In this document: piece after piece, positions 528 to 2,019 of the stretch
Position numbering within the stretch: the stretch's first letter is position 1
How the letters are laid out: every line of letters begins with the position of its first letter
UHGV virus genome: UHGV-0350838
Source of the DNA: a virus
Length of the DNA stretch: 10,201 nucleotides
Strand: one strand, 5' to 3'
Notes under the pieces: model-generated
What the model was told of the DNA's origin: nothing
Databases searched by the model: none
The model's input: the letters and a program-made list of their open reading frames with translations, nothing else
Made by a program: the position numbers and the translations under genes

Positions 528-597
528 TGTGGATTGATCCAGTCTTTCTACATCAGGCCTCAAAACTGTTGCAGCAGTCTTGAGGCTTTTCTTTTGT
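528..597 (+). ncRNA. oop: oop-like short antisense RNA overlapping the 3' end of the cII-like gene, with pO promoter and intrinsic terminator
   Basis: -35 TTGAGT (493-498) and -10 CATAAT (516-521, overlapping the O start codon) with 17-bp spacing; hairpin GCCTCAA...TTGAGGC (557-586) followed by TTTTCTTTTGT. Position and orientation match lambda oop. Confidence 0.5.
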
Positions 598-831
598 CAG
601 CACCATGGCTACTTTCTTTGCTAGCTTTGCTAATTCCTCGTCTTCAACACCCCACTCCAGCACAGCCAGAAGCATGGCCATCTTTGGGATAAAGCTGTCT
701 TTCCATCGCGAAATTTGCGATTCATTAATCCCTAATGCATCAGCAACCTTTCGCTGACCACGTACAGCAATTCGATTCAGGATGTTGCTTGTGATTGCAT
801 TCGCTTTCTTGCGAGTACTTGTAAGTTGCAT
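553..831 (-). CDS. cII: cII-family transcriptional activator, P22 c1-like, 92 aa
   Basis: MQLTSTRKKANAITSNILNRIAVRGQRKVADALGINESQISRWKDSFIPKMAMLLAVLEWGVEDEELAKLAKKVAMVLTKEKPQDCCNSFEA shares the SQISRWK...IPK...MLLAVLEWGV core with lambda CII. Start chosen at ATG 829-831, preceded by TAAGGAAATACTTACAT; the ORF-track start at 918 is an upstream extension. Confidence 0.88.
   Translation of the reverse strand: MQLTSTRKKANAITSNILNRIAVRGQRKVADALGINESQISRWKDSFIPKMAMLLAVLEWGVEDEELAKLAKKVAMVLTKEKPQDCCNSFEA
785..830 (+). promoter_or_regulatory. pRE-like promoter with CII-type activator site TTGC-N6-TTGC, inside the 5' part of the cII-like gene and directed toward cro and c2
   Basis: TTGCTTGTGATTGC at 785-798 on the plus strand is the tetrad direct repeat recognised by CII-family activators; lambda pRE sits at the equivalent place. 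Confidence 0.5.
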
Positions 832-888
832 ATGTAAGTATTTCCTTAACAAATAAGAAGTTATACGCACCAACTGATGCGCGTTGTA

Positions 889-933
889 TTCCCGCATTTC
901 GGCGGGAATAAGGACCATGACTGTTAAAGAGCA
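889..933 (-). promoter_or_regulatory. nutR: boxA plus boxB hairpin, just downstream of cro
   Basis: Minus-strand boxA TGCTCTTTAACAG (921-933) and boxB TCCCGCCGAAATGCGGGAA (889-907); the boxB 19-mer is identical to the one at nutL. Confidence 0.6.
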
Positions 934-939
934 ATTTGC

Positions 940-1125
940 TTATGCCGCTTTGCGATAAGCACTTTCTTGATACTTCAGGGCGCCAGCTGTAACGACTTCC
1001 AGTCGATAGGCGTCTTTCTCTGGGATGACTTCCTTCCACTGAGAGACTGCTGCATCGCTAATGCCTAACGCTTTAGCTACCGCACGCTGGGTTCCGAAGT
1101 GGTCGATAACATCTTTCTTGTACAT
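940..1125 (-). CDS. cro: Cro repressor, P22 Cro-type, 61 aa
   Basis: MYKKDVIDHFGTQRAVAKALGISDAAVSQWKEVIPEKDAYRLEVVTAGALKYQESAYRKAA is near-identical to P22 Cro as I recall it; transcribed divergently from the repressor gene. Confidence 0.9.
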   Translation of the reverse strand: MYKKDVIDHFGTQRAVAKALGISDAAVSQWKEVIPEKDAYRLEVVTAGALKYQESAYRKAA

Positions 1126-1139
1126 AGACTCGCTCCGAA

Positions 1140-1205
1140 GTTAAAGAACACTTAAATTATCTATCAAAGGAATCTTAAGTCAAGTTTATTTAAGATGTCT
1201 TAACT
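1140..1205. promoter_or_regulatory. OR operator region with divergent PR (minus strand, toward cro) and PRM (plus strand, toward c2)
   Basis: P22-type 18-bp operators: GTTAAAGAACACTTAAAT (1140-1157) and ATTTAAGATGTCTTAACT (1188-1205, abutting the c2 ATG). PR on the minus strand has -35 TTGACT (1178-1183) and -10 GATAAT (1156-1161), 17-bp spacer. c2 has no Shine-Dalgarno, consistent with a leaderless PRM transcript. Confidence 0.75.
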
Positions 1206-1856
1206 ATGAATACACAACTGATGGGTGAGCGTATTCGCGCTCGCAGAAAAGAACTTAAGATTAGGCAGGCTGCCCTTGGCAAGATGGTTGGCGTGTCTAA
1301 TGTTGCTATTTCCCAATGGGAGCGTTCTGAAACTGAGCCCAATGGCGAAAACCTATTGGCTTTAGCCAAGGCTTTACAGTGCTCCCCTGATTACTTGTTG
1401 AAAGGAGAAGATAGTCTTTCAAACATTGCCTATCACAGCAGGCATGATCCAAGAGGTTCGTATCCTCTAATTAGTTGGGTAAGCGCAGGATGTTGGATGG
1501 AAGCTGTAGAGCCATATCATAAGCGTGCAATAGATAACTGGTACGATACAACCGTAGATTGTTCAGAAGATTCGTTTTGGCTGGACGTAAAGGGTGATTC
1601 GATGACGGCTCCAGCCGGTCTTAGCATCCCGGAAGGGATGATAATACTAGTCGATCCTGAAGTAGAACCTCGTAATGGGAAGCTGGTAGTGGCAAAGCTC
1701 GAAGGAGAAAACGAGGCAACTTTTAAGAAGTTAGTTATTGATGCTGGCAGAAGGTTTCTAAAACCACTTAACCCACAATATCCGATGATTGAGATCAACG
1801 GTAACTGCAAAATCATCGGTGTAGTTGTCGATGCAAAAATAGCAAACCTTCCATAA
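1206..1856 (+). CDS. c2: Prophage repressor, P22 C2-type: N-terminal HTH domain plus C-terminal LexA-like S24 autocleavage domain, 216 aa
   Basis: MNTQLMGERIRARRKELKIRQAALGKMVGVSNVAISQWERSETEPNGENLLALAKALQCSPDYLL... matches P22 C2 nearly residue for residue from memory; the S24 domain carries the GDSM serine and a downstream lysine. Confidence 0.95.
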   Translation: MNTQLMGERIRARRKELKIRQAALGKMVGVSNVAISQWERSETEPNGENLLALAKALQCSPDYLLKGEDSLSNIAYHSRHDPRGSYPLISWVSAGCWMEAVEPYHKRAIDNWYDTTVDCSEDSFWLDVKGDSMTAPAGLSIPEGMIILVDPEVEPRNGKLVVAKLEGENEATFKKLVIDAGRRFLKPLNPQYPMIEINGNCKIIGVVVDAKIANLP

Positions 1857-1878
1857 GGGGCATTCGCCCCTTTTTTCT
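1857..1878 (+). terminator. Intrinsic terminator after the repressor gene
   Basis: GGGGC-ATTC-GCCCC hairpin followed by TTTTTTCTTT immediately after the c2 stop codon. Confidence 0.7.
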
Positions 1879-1919
1879 TTCCTTTAAAAATCAAAGCAAA
1901 ACTTAAACTTCGCAATAAA

Positions 1920-1973
1920 ATTTAAGCTTTCTTCAAAAATACCCTTGACCAATAATTAAAGAAATCTTAAATT
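1920..1973 (+). promoter_or_regulatory. OL operators and PL promoter
   Basis: P22-type operators ATTTAAGCTTTCTTCAAA (1920-1937) and ATTAAAGAAATCTTAAAT (1955-1972) flank a -35 TTGACC (1945-1950); -10-like TAAATT at 1968-1973; directed toward the N-like gene. Confidence 0.65.
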
Positions 1974-2019
1974 TAAGTCATCAGCAGGACGCTGGTAGCC
2001 AAACGGAACAGATTAGCAG

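What the first reader, a model, noticed from the sequence alone, without database searches (positions are those of the whole stretch)
553..1980. P22-type immunity module embedded in a lambda-type backbone
c2, cro, the cII-like c1 and the operators (ATTTAAG-N4-CTTAAAT type) are P22-like, whereas O, sieB-ral-ea10-cIII-kil-gam-bet-exo and xis-int are lambda-like. The rexAB genes that follow cI in lambda are absent, as in P22. The c1 gene is preceded by the exact lambda-type cII ribosome-binding sequence TAAGGAAATACTTACATATG, so one recombination junction may lie at or near the c1 start codon. The repressor retains the LexA-like autocleavage domain, so the prophage should be SOS-inducible even though its origin looks defective.
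Basis: partly seen in the sequence, partly recalled or inferred. Interest (0 to 1): 0.45.

Follow-up and report, generated by a model that had tools for sequence, protein, structure and literature searches.

The report
Phage-21-type immunity cassette, lambda-like prophage
This is the lysis/lysogeny switch of a lambda-like prophage in E. coli ETEC H10407; its repressor is almost identical to that of the classic coliphage 21 (a relative of P22's), so it is an ordinary, textbook example of module swapping among lambdoid phages.

Summary
The window is E. coli ETEC H10407 chromosome (NC_017633.1 862243-872439), a prophage at att-lambda. A non-lambda regulatory block does sit inside DNA that is 96-99% lambda-like, so the core observation holds. 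The labels need correcting.

- **Repressor:** it is 213/216 aa identical to coliphage 21 cI, with residues 1-105 identical, against 201/216 to P22 C2.
- **Immunity cassette:** cro-OR-cI-OL (933-1978) is 90.5% identical to phage 21 and 84.4% to P22. This is imm21-type immunity.
- **Size of the non-lambda block:** about 2.5 kb (about 523-3058), larger than reported. It also holds a non-lambda N gene, its nut sites, and a P22-type sieB, not a lambda-type one.
- **Nesting:** c1, nutR boxB, nutL, N and sieB match coliphage HK140 at 95-99%. Only 933-1978 differs from HK140.
- **Junctions:** they lie at the O ribosome-binding site, nutR boxA, the start of the PL transcript and upstream of sieB. None lies at the c1 start codon. 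The lambda-identical 20-mer there is an isolated island.
- **Repressor cleavage:** the Ala-Gly site and the Ser/Lys dyad are intact.
- **Replication:** the O gene and ori carry a 67-bp iteron deletion.

This is a known kind of mosaic and of low interest.

The parts
1..518 (-). 5' part of the lambda-type replication gene O, including what remains of ori. A 67-bp deletion between iterons 1 and 4 (the join is within window 155-171) shifts the reading frame.
   Evidence: RefSeq annotates the gene as 'frameshifted'.
493..521 (+). Po, the promoter of the oop antisense RNA (TTGAGT-17-CATAAT). It lies in the lambda-like segment.
   Evidence: alignment.
528..597 (+). oop-like antisense RNA. The terminator hairpin at 555-588 is followed by a T run and overlaps the c1 stop codon and 3' end. 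The body is of the P22/HK140 type.
   Evidence: folding energy -26.3 kcal/mol, z-score -4.3.
523..530 (.). Left mosaic junction, where lambda-type O DNA meets the HK140/P22-type block. It lies inside the shared ACAGGAGT (O Shine-Dalgarno sequence). Informative sites are 522 (lambda type) and 531 (P22/HK140 type).
   Evidence: Alignment; BLAST limits.
553..831 (-). c1/cII-family activator of lysogeny, 92 aa. Identity: HK140 CII 92/92; P22 C1 82/92; lambda CII 44/92; phage 21 CII 21/89.
809..841 (+). PRE. The C1/CII-binding repeat TTGC-N6-TTGT is at 809-822 and the -10 AAGTAT at 836-841, with the same 13-nt spacing as in lambda.
   Evidence: sequence; alignment.
829..848 (-). The 20-mer TAAGGAAATACTTACATATG (c1 ribosome-binding site plus ATG; its complement holds the PRE -10). 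It is identical in lambda and IME10. P22 differs at 4 of 20 positions.
890..907 (-). nutR boxB hairpin UCCCGCCGAAAUGCGGGA (HK140/IME10 type). It differs from the boxB of lambda, P22 and phage 21.
921..932 (-). nutR boxA (GCTCTTTAACAG) and junction A. HK140-type DNA ends here and phage-21-type DNA begins.
940..1125 (-). cro, 61 aa. Identity: phage 21 Cro 59/61; P22 Cro 58/61.
1140..1205 (.). OR1 (1140-1157), OR2 (1163-1180) and OR3 (1188-1205). PR lies on the minus strand (-35 at 1183-1178, -10 at 1161-1156).
1206..1856 (+). Prophage repressor, 216 aa, with HTH_3 and Peptidase_S24 domains. Ala94-Gly95, Ser132 and Lys174 are present. Identity: phage 21 cI 213/216; P22 C2 201/216.
1855..1872 (+). 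Intrinsic terminator hairpin after the repressor gene. No rexAB genes follow.
1920..1973 (+). OL2 (1920-1937), OL1 (1955-1972) and PL (TTGACC-17-TAAATT, 1945-1973). An OL3 site was not clearly identifiable.
1979..1995 (.). Junction B, at the start of the PL transcript. The sequence CATCAGCAGGACGCTGG is shared by all relatives examined, and HK140-type DNA resumes here at 99.4% identity.
2020..2060 (+). nutL: boxA GCTCTTTAACA (2020-2030) and boxB UCCCGCCGAAAUGCGGGA (2043-2060). The boxB is identical to that of nutR.
2168..2440 (+). N-type antiterminator, 90 aa. Identity: HK140 N 87/90; phage 21 N 40/86; P22 gp24 36/87; lambda N 15/90.
2457..3038 (-). P22-type superinfection exclusion gene sieB, 193 aa. 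Identity: P22 SieB 158/192; HK140 178/193; lambda SieB 34/163. The right junction with lambda-like DNA is at about 3059.

Best explanation
The region is the lysis/lysogeny switch of a lambdoid prophage integrated at att-lambda in E. coli ETEC H10407. It is built from three nested layers of mosaic DNA.

**Layer 1, the backbone.** These parts are 96-99% lambda-like: O, ral, ea10-cIII-kil-gam-bet-exo and xis-int.

**Layer 2, an early-regulatory block of about 2.5 kb (about 523-3058).** It is of the kind found in coliphage HK140. It carries a P22-family c1/cII activator, an N protein like that of HK140 (which the HK140 record annotates as similar to HK620 N) with its own boxB in nutL and nutR, and a P22-type sieB.

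**Layer 3, the immunity cassette proper, 1,046 bp (933-1978).** It holds cro, OR1-3, the repressor, a terminator and OL/PL. It is of coliphage 21 (imm21) type, the E. coli branch of the P22 immC family.

**Inferred mechanism, by homology with lambda, P22 and phage 21**
- Repressor dimers bind the 18-bp operators. This shuts off PR and PL and sustains repressor transcription from PRM.
- Cro binds the same operators in lytic growth.
- C1 binds TTGC-N6-TTGT at PRE (809-822), and at the lambda-type PI upstream of xis (8909-8922), to establish lysogeny.
- The oop RNA is antisense to the 3' end of c1.
- N acts at the two nut sites.
- RecA-stimulated self-cleavage at Ala94-Gly95 should induce the prophage.
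- The repressor's DNA-binding half is identical to that of phage 21 cI, so the lysogen should be immune to phage 21, lambda imm21 and DE3-type phages, and probably to P22 immC-type phages, but not to lambda or 434.
- After induction, replication should fail because O is frameshifted and three of the four ori iterons are deleted.

**Shown here:** the sequence identities, domains, operator sites, promoter and terminator motifs, and junction positions.
**Inferred:** binding, immunity specificity, inducibility and the replication defect.
For: - Source and location: 100% match to NC_017633.1, next to ybhC.
- Lambda-like segments and their limits.
- HK140 matches window 155-932 at 97.7%, 1979-2153 at 99.4% and 2153-3187 at 95.5%. 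It does not match 933-1978. C1 is 92/92 aa, N 87/90 and SieB 178/193 identical to HK140, while Cro and CI are unrelated to HK140's.
- Window 930-2000 is 90.5% identical to phage 21, DE3 and lambda imm21; 90.3-90.8% to IME10, N7, CUS-3, HK629, mEp235 and the other E. coli phages listed; and 84.4% to P22-type Salmonella phages.
- The repressor differs from full-length phage 21 cI at 3 positions (106, 183, 212) and from P22 C2 at 15.
- OR is nearly identical in the window, P22, phage 21 and IME10. Operator pattern: 6 hits against 0.85 expected, five of them in OR and OL.
- Domains. The P22 C2 N-terminal-domain structures are the top PDB matches. Cleavage-site and catalytic residues are conserved.
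- PR, PL, Po and the terminator. PRE and PI sites. oop and boxB hairpins.
- O/ori deletion.
Against: - No experiment: binding, immunity, RecA-mediated cleavage and induction are all inferred.
- OR1 has G at its first position where P22, phage 21 and IME10 have A. The effect is unknown.
- OL3 could not be located with the consensus.
- 90.5% nucleotide identity to phage 21 means the cassette is an allele of imm21, not phage 21 DNA itself.
- Cross-immunity with P22 rests on 2 substitutions in the N-terminal domain (K16E, S54A, outside helix 3) and on my recollection of the older literature. I could not retrieve that literature.
Confidence: 0.9

Rival explanations
1. This is the first reader's reading: a P22 immC module (c1-cro-c2 and operators, 553-1980) was moved as one piece from a P22-like Salmonella phage into a lambda genome, with one crossover at or near the c1 start codon.
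For: - P22 is colinear with window 511-2036 at 82.1% identity.
- C2 is 93%, Cro 95% and C1 89% aa identical to the P22 proteins.
- The lambda-identical 20-mer lies at the c1 start.
Against: - E. coli phages are closer over every sub-segment. HK140 is 97.7% identical over c1 and nutR. Phage 21 is 90.5% identical over cro to OL. E. coli prophages reach 99% or more.
- Relative to HK140, only 933-1978 is exchanged.
- Lambda identity on both sides of the 20-mer is 40-68% per 50-bp bin, so no lambda block starts there.
- IME10, a P22-like podovirus, carries the same 20-mer.
Confidence: 0.04
2. The immunity region is a decaying remnant with no working switch, because the prophage is defective (frameshifted O, deleted ori).
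For: - O and ori carry a 67-bp deletion.
- A nearby DUF1364 pseudogene is annotated in the prophage.
- OR1 has a first-base change.
Against: - All five regulatory genes (c1, cro, repressor, N, sieB) are full-length open reading frames with high-scoring family matches.
- Promoters, operators, both nut sites and the terminators are intact.
- The module is conserved at 99% or more in many E. coli genomes.
Confidence: 0.07
3. The window is laboratory lambda imm21 or DE3-type DNA (a contaminant or an engineered hybrid), not a natural prophage.
For: DE3 and lambda imm21 are the best isolated-phage matches (72% coverage, 95.6% identity).
Against: - The match to the H10407 chromosome is 100%, apart from the local rearrangement at 7122-7350.
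- cII differs from that of phage 21 (21/89 aa). sieB is present, whereas phage 21 has none.
- The late genes are not lambda-like.
- 22 other complete E. coli genomes, besides H10407 and its identical-length record SEC470, carry 80% or more of the window.
Confidence: 0.01

Closest known systems
Coliphage 21 immunity region (imm21), as in phage 21, lambda imm21 and the DE3 prophage of BL21(DE3)
   Same: - The repressor is 213/216 aa identical, with residues 1-105 identical. Cro is 59/61.
- OR2 and OR3 are identical, and OR1 differs at one base.
- cro to OL is 90.5% identical at the nucleotide level.
- There is no rexAB.
- It sits next to lambda-type O/P and red genes, as in phage 21 itself.
   Different: - cII is unrelated (21/89 aa). 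Here it is a P22-c1-type activator.
- The N arginine-rich N-terminus and boxB differ. Only the middle of N resembles phage 21 N.
- sieB is present here and absent from phage 21.
- int and xis are lambda-type, not phage 21-type.
Salmonella phage P22 immC region (c1-cro-c2, OR/OL)
   Same: - The gene order is the same and the region is colinear with window 511-2036 (82.1%).
- C2 is 201/216, Cro 58/61 and C1 82/92 aa identical.
- The 18-bp operator family is the same.
- The Ala94-Gly95 position is the same.
- sieB is P22-type (82% aa).
   Different: - Nucleotide identity is only 82-84%.
- The nut boxB and the N protein differ.
- The c1 ribosome-binding site and PRE -10 are lambda-like rather than P22-like.
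- P22's orf48 between c1 and the replication gene is absent.
- The replication, recombination and integration genes are lambda-type. No immI region lies in the window or in the 15 kb beyond O; the rest of the prophage was not examined.
Coliphage HK140 (and HK620/HK630-type) early regulatory block
   Same: - O to c1 to nutR (window 155-932) is 97.7% identical.
- The PL leader and nutL (1979-2153) are 99.4% identical.
- N and sieB (2153-3187) are 95.5% identical.
- C1 is 92/92, N 87/90 and SieB 178/193 aa identical.
   Different: - HK140 carries a different cro/cI pair, which its record annotates as similar to those of HK620. CI is 91/215 aa identical and Cro is unalignable.
- HK140 has about 200 bp more between nutL and N.
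- HK140's O/ori is intact.
Phage lambda immunity region (cII-cro-cI-rexAB-N)
   Same: - The switch architecture is the same: divergent PR/PRM with three operators, PL with its operators, CII-dependent PRE overlapping the cII start, oop antisense RNA, and N with nutL and nutR.
- The 20-bp cII ribosome-binding site and PRE -10 are identical, as are Po and the PI site.
   Different: - The repressor is 35%, Cro 26%, CII 48% and N 17% aa identical.
- There is no rexAB.
- The operator sequences differ, so heteroimmunity is expected.

Membership tests
LexA-like lambdoid prophage repressors (CI/C2: HTH plus S24 self-cleaving domain) | N-terminal helix-turn-helix DNA-binding domain | tested here: met
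   Pfam HTH_3, E 6e-17, residues 10-64. Residues 1-76 align to the P22 C2 N-terminal-domain structure 1ADR, E 2e-39.
LexA-like lambdoid prophage repressors (CI/C2: HTH plus S24 self-cleaving domain) | C-terminal Peptidase_S24 domain with an Ala-Gly cleavage site and a Ser/Lys dyad | tested here: met
   Peptidase_S24, E 6e-31, full-length match. Ala94-Gly95, Ser132 and Lys174 align with lambda cI A111-G112, S149 and K192.
LexA-like lambdoid prophage repressors (CI/C2: HTH plus S24 self-cleaving domain) | RecA-stimulated self-cleavage and SOS induction | not testable with these tools
   This needs a cleavage assay or an induction experiment.
imm21 / P22 immC immunity specificity group | Recognition helix and DNA-binding domain identical or near-identical to phage 21 cI or P22 C2 | tested here: met
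   Residues 1-105 are identical to phage 21 cI. Within residues 1-67 there are 2 differences from P22 C2 (K16E, S54A), both outside helix 3, SNVAISQWE.
imm21 / P22 immC immunity specificity group | 18-bp operators of the type ANTNAAG-N4-CTTNANT, three at OR and at least two at OL, overlapping PR/PRM and PL | tested here: met
   Five sites in OR and OL; 6 hits in the window against 0.85 expected. The OR alignment is nearly identical to phage 21 and P22. Overlap with the promoters is shown. OL3 was not clearly found.
imm21 / P22 immC immunity specificity group | The lysogen is immune to phage 21 and lambda imm21 (homoimmunity) | not testable with these tools
   This needs a plating test.
Phage CII/C1 lysogeny activators | Phage_CII fold/family | tested here: met
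   Pfam Phage_CII, E 2.4e-44, profile positions 1-91 of 91. 82/92 aa identical to P22 C1.
Phage CII/C1 lysogeny activators | TTGC-N6-TTGY target straddling the -35 of PRE, on the opposite strand within its own 5' coding region | tested here: met
   TTGCGAGTACTTGT at 809-822 (+), 13 nt upstream of AAGTAT (sequence). A lambda-type PI site lies at 8909-8922.
Genuine P22 (Lederbergvirus) immunity system | Near-identity to P22 immC DNA, plus a second immunity region immI (mnt-arc-ant) | tested here: not met
   Only 82-84% nucleotide identity to P22. No ant, arc or mnt gene is present in the window or annotated in the 15 kb beyond O. The rest of the prophage was not examined.
Phage lambda early region (backbone) | At least 95% nucleotide identity and colinearity with lambda O, ral, ea10-exo and xis-int | tested here: met
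   96.5-98.8% identity in five colinear segments. The cIII thermoregulator RNA was found (RF01804, 88.5 bits).
Phage lambda early region (backbone) | Lambda-type sieB, N and rexAB | tested here: not met
   SieB is 21% and N 17% aa identical to the lambda proteins. rexAB is absent.

The most novel reading that the evidence does not exclude
The prophage cannot replicate (one ori iterons left, frameshifted O) yet keeps an intact imm21 repressor, sieB, N and the nut sites. It could therefore be a domesticated element that H10407 and related ETEC lineages retain as a defence cassette against imm21/P22-type and SieB-sensitive phages. The N and boxB pair (arginine-rich N-terminus DDNARNRRRARRQAQREQA with the hairpin UCCCGC-CGAAAU-GCGGGA) may also be an antitermination specificity that has not been studied biochemically. 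I have no evidence of selection for either idea.
Probability: 0.1. Interest if true: 0.25.

Novelty: already known. Interest (0 to 1): 0.1.

Why it matters
It matters little beyond annotation. It gives a precise, nucleotide-level example of the modular exchange already described for lambdoid phages. The exchanged immunity cassette is bounded by conserved linker sequences (nutR boxA and the start of the PL transcript), and it is nested in a second exchanged block bounded by the O ribosome-binding site and the region upstream of sieB.

In practice it predicts that ETEC H10407 is immune to phage 21, lambda imm21 and DE3-type phages. It also predicts that SOS induction would derepress kil, gam and the red genes and allow excision, but without phage replication. 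These predictions are relevant if phages or lambda-derived tools are used on this reference strain.

Tried and rejected
1. I tested whether the whole window is colinear with one known phage. It is not: no isolated phage covers 80% or more.
2. I tested a junction at the c1 start codon. Rejected: the 20-mer is an island. HK140, IME10 and P22 are all colinear across it.
3. I tested a direct P22 origin. Rejected: E. coli phages are closer in every sub-segment.
4. I looked in the paper library for explicit statements that phage 21 and P22 share immunity specificity (Poteete et al. 1980; Botstein & Herskowitz 1974). I found only citations, not the text. The H10407 genome paper (PMC2953697) is not held. 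Cross-immunity is therefore argued from sequence only.
5. The Rfam scan found no curated family for oop or the nut sites. It found only the lambda cIII thermoregulator.
6. PADLOC and Pfam gave nothing for the two unknown membrane ORFs.
7. Technical note: loci fetched in parallel are stored together in one FASTA file. The first two BLAST attempts therefore looked empty, and lambda, P22 and phage 21 were fetched twice.
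Full report
**Source**

The window is 100% identical to the chromosome of E. coli ETEC H10407 (NC_017633.1 862243-872439, minus strand), except for one local rearrangement described at the end. It is the int-proximal arm of a prophage integrated next to ybhC, the att-lambda site. RefSeq annotates the genes in the reported interval as 'lambda phage CII family protein', 'Cro/CI family transcriptional regulator' and 'LexA family protein', and annotates the O gene as frameshifted.

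**What is at 553-1980**

| Feature | Coordinates | Evidence |
|---|---|---|
| c1/cII-family gene, 92 aa | 553-831 (-) | Pfam Phage_CII, E 2e-44 |
| cro, 61 aa | 940-1125 (-) | Pfam P22_Cro, E 9e-28 |
| Repressor, 216 aa | 1206-1856 (+) | HTH_3 plus Peptidase_S24 |
| OR1, OR2, OR3 | 1140-1157, 1163-1180, 1188-1205 | |
| OL2, OL1 | 1920-1937, 1955-1972 | |

- The 553-918 ORF in the mechanical list is an upstream extension of c1. RefSeq and the P22 homologue start at the ATG at 831.
None of 200 shuffles reached six. Five of the six hits are the operators in the table.
- The consensus scan finds PR (minus strand, 1183-1156), PL (1945-1973), the oop promoter Po (493-521) and a terminator directly after the repressor gene (1855-1872).
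- No rexAB genes are present.
- The 20-mer TAAGGAAATACTTACATATG is present exactly at 829-848 (-). It is also exact in lambda and IME10, but not in P22 or phage 21.
- The repressor keeps Ala94-Gly95, Ser132 and Lys174, which align with lambda cI Ala111-Gly112, Ser149 and Lys192.

These parts of the observation are correct.

**Breakpoint mapping against lambda** (local blastn)

| Window segment | Content | Identity to lambda |
|---|---|---|
| 1-543 | O | 98.7-98.8% |
| 3059-3482 | upstream of sieB, through ral | 96.5% |
| 3973-7121 | ea10 to orf63 | 97.6% |
| 7351-7685 | | 97.3% |
| 8658-10201 | xis-int | 98.4% |

- Nothing between about 544 and 3058 matches lambda. The foreign block is therefore about 2.5 kb, not 1.4 kb.
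- The block also contains an N-family gene (2168-2440), nutL and sieB (2457-3038, -).
It is 21% aa identical to lambda SieB and 82% to P22 SieB.
- The left junction can be placed inside the 8-bp string ACAGGAGT, the O Shine-Dalgarno sequence (window 523-530). It lies between a lambda-type informative base at 522 and a P22/HK140-type base at 531.
- This puts the junction inside the oop antisense RNA. Po is lambda-type, while the body and terminator hairpin (555-588; -26.3 kcal/mol, z-score -4.3) are of the P22/HK140 type.

**Which immunity type**

- P22 is colinear with window 511-2036, but at only 82.1% identity.
- For window 930-2000, phage 21, lambda imm21, DE3 and 17 further E. coli phage records are 90.3-90.8% identical. 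These include P22-like podoviruses (IME10, N7, JEP4, CUS-3, Kapi1) and long-tailed lambdoid phages (HK629, mEp235, phiv205-1). P22-type Salmonella phages are 84.4% identical.
- The phage 21 record annotates a shortened cI. Translating from the conserved upstream ATG gives a 216-aa protein that differs from the window's repressor at only 3 positions (106, 183, 212). P22 C2 differs at 15 positions, and IME10 at 7.
- Residues 1-105 of the repressor, that is the DNA-binding domain and linker, are identical to phage 21 cI.
- Cro is 59/61 identical to phage 21 Cro and 58/61 to P22 Cro.
- OR is almost invariant among the window, phage 21, P22 and IME10. The only difference inside an operator relative to phage 21 is G for A at the first base of OR1.
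- The accurate name is therefore imm21-type immunity, the E. coli branch of the P22 immC family. In complete E. coli genomes, 264 of 5,426 hold a match covering at least 80% of window 553-1980, and 85 records have a best match of 99% identity or more.

**The module is itself composite**

- The c1 and nutR segment (545-932) is 97% identical to HK140 and to several Stx-converting phages, and 92% to HK620 and HK630.
- BLAST against the HK140 early region shows that HK140 matches window 155-932 (97.7%), 1979-2153 (99.4%) and 2153-3187 (95.5%). It does not match 933-1978.
- HK140's C1 is 92/92, its N 87/90 and its SieB 178/193 aa identical to the window's proteins. Its cro and cI are of a different type, which the HK140 record annotates as similar to those of HK620.
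- The exchanged immunity cassette proper is therefore 933-1978. It is bounded by nutR boxA (921-932, shared by all the phages compared) and by the conserved start of the PL transcript, CATCAGCAGGACGCTGG (from 1979).
- The boxB hairpins of nutL (2043-2060) and nutR (890-907, -) are identical to each other. They differ from those of lambda, P22 and phage 21. This fits an N protein whose arginine-rich N-terminus also differs from all three.

**The 20-mer at the c1 start**

- It is too long to be a chance identity, but it does not mark the edge of a lambda-like block. Lambda identity is 40-68% in every 50-bp bin from 551 to 950. HK140, IME10 and P22 are all colinear across it.
- It contains the c1 ribosome-binding site and ATG. 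On the other strand it contains the PRE -10 (AAGTAT, 836-841), placed 13 nt from the C1-binding repeat TTGC-N6-TTGT (809-822), exactly as in lambda.
- My reading is that it is either a functionally constrained element or an old micro-patch. The sequence cannot distinguish these two.

**Mechanism**

This is inferred by homology with lambda, P22 and phage 21; nothing here was tested experimentally.

- The repressor binds OR and OL, represses PR and PL and maintains its own synthesis.
- Cro competes for the same sites.
- C1 activates PRE and the lambda-type PI (8909-8922).
- The oop RNA is antisense to the 3' end of c1.
- N acts at the matched nut sites.
- RecA-stimulated cleavage at Ala94-Gly95 should induce the prophage.
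- The lysogen should be immune to phage 21, lambda imm21 and DE3-type phages, and probably to P22 immC-type phages.
- Phage replication after induction should fail. The O gene has a 67-bp deletion that joins iteron 1 to iteron 4, leaving one iteron and shifting the reading frame.

**Novelty**

- Mosaic exchange of immunity modules among lambdoid phages is textbook knowledge. Lambda imm21 hybrids are classic laboratory phages, recently sequenced (PMC9119081).
- The same cassette occurs in many sequenced phages with different backbones and in hundreds of E. coli genomes.
- The H10407 genome is published and annotated.
- The finding is real but ordinary. My contribution is a corrected label (imm21-type), corrected extent and corrected junctions.

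**Seen in passing**

1. Window 7122-7350 is the reverse complement of record positions corresponding to 7166-7394. It replaces the 224 bp that H10407 has there.
   - This creates a perfect 49-bp inverted repeat (7122-7170 and 7350-7398) and truncates a 72-aa orf61-like gene.
   - None of the 5,426 complete E. coli genomes has this arrangement.
   - It may be an edit, an assembly variant or a rare rearrangement.
2. A 490-bp insert (3483-3972) between ral and ea10 carries a 149-aa membrane ORF of unknown function. It matches phrog_3054 and has no Pfam or PADLOC match.
3. A 200-aa membrane ORF on the minus strand (7884-8486) replaces lambda ea22 and ea8.5.
4. The lambda cIII thermoregulator RNA is present at 4585-4643.

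Noticed in passing
window 7122-7398: Window 7122-7350 is the reverse complement of the H10407 record segment that corresponds to window 7166-7394. It replaces the 224 bp present in the record. This creates a perfect 49-bp inverted repeat (7122-7170 and 7350-7398) and truncates the 72-aa orf61-like ORF. None of 5,426 complete E. coli genomes, H10407 included, has this arrangement. It may be an edit, an assembly variant or a rare rearrangement.
   Followed up: yes
window 1-518 (join within 155-171): The lambda-type O gene and ori carry a 67-bp deletion that joins iteron 1 to iteron 4. One iteron is left and O is frameshifted, with a stop at window 54. The prophage is predicted to be unable to replicate.
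   Followed up: yes
window 2168-2440, 2043-2060 and 890-907: The N protein is a three-part mosaic. Its arginine-rich N-terminus is unlike lambda, P22 or phage 21; its middle resembles phage 21 N; its C-terminus resembles P22 gp24. nutL and nutR share an identical boxB, UCCCGCCGAAAUGCGGGA, with a 6-nt loop. This is the HK140/IME10-type antitermination set (HK140's N is annotated as HK620-like). I found no biochemical study of this N-boxB pair in the paper library.
   Followed up: partly
window 3483-3972: A 490-bp insert between ral and ea10 is absent from lambda, P22, phage 21 and IME10. It carries a 149-aa predicted membrane ORF (3512-3961, +) that matches phrog_3054 (unknown function) and has no Pfam or PADLOC match. 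It is possibly a moron.
   Followed up: partly
window 7884-8486 (-): A 200-aa ORF on the opposite strand lies in the non-lambda stretch 7686-8657, in place of lambda ea22 and ea8.5. Only its C-terminal 88 aa match a phage family (phrog_1416, unknown function). It has no PADLOC match.
   Followed up: partly
window 1140: OR1 begins with G, where P22, phage 21 and IME10 all have A. The effect on repressor or Cro affinity is unknown.
   Followed up: no
window 493-597: The oop antisense RNA is chimeric. Its promoter Po lies in the lambda-type segment, and its body and terminator lie in the HK140/P22-type segment, with the crossover at 523-530.
   Followed up: partly
L008 7829-7906 (phage 21 record OL657228.1): The phage 21 record annotates cI as 190 aa. 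The conserved ATG 78 nt upstream gives a 216-aa protein colinear with P22 C2 and with the window's repressor. The deposited start is probably too short.
   Followed up: yes
L001 6343-7800 and 9684-12000 (H10407 prophage beyond the window): The late part of the same prophage carries DLP12-type quuD, essD, rrrD and rzpD, a porin gene, a trkG gene and a non-lambda head module. The mosaicism therefore extends well beyond the immunity region.
   Followed up: no
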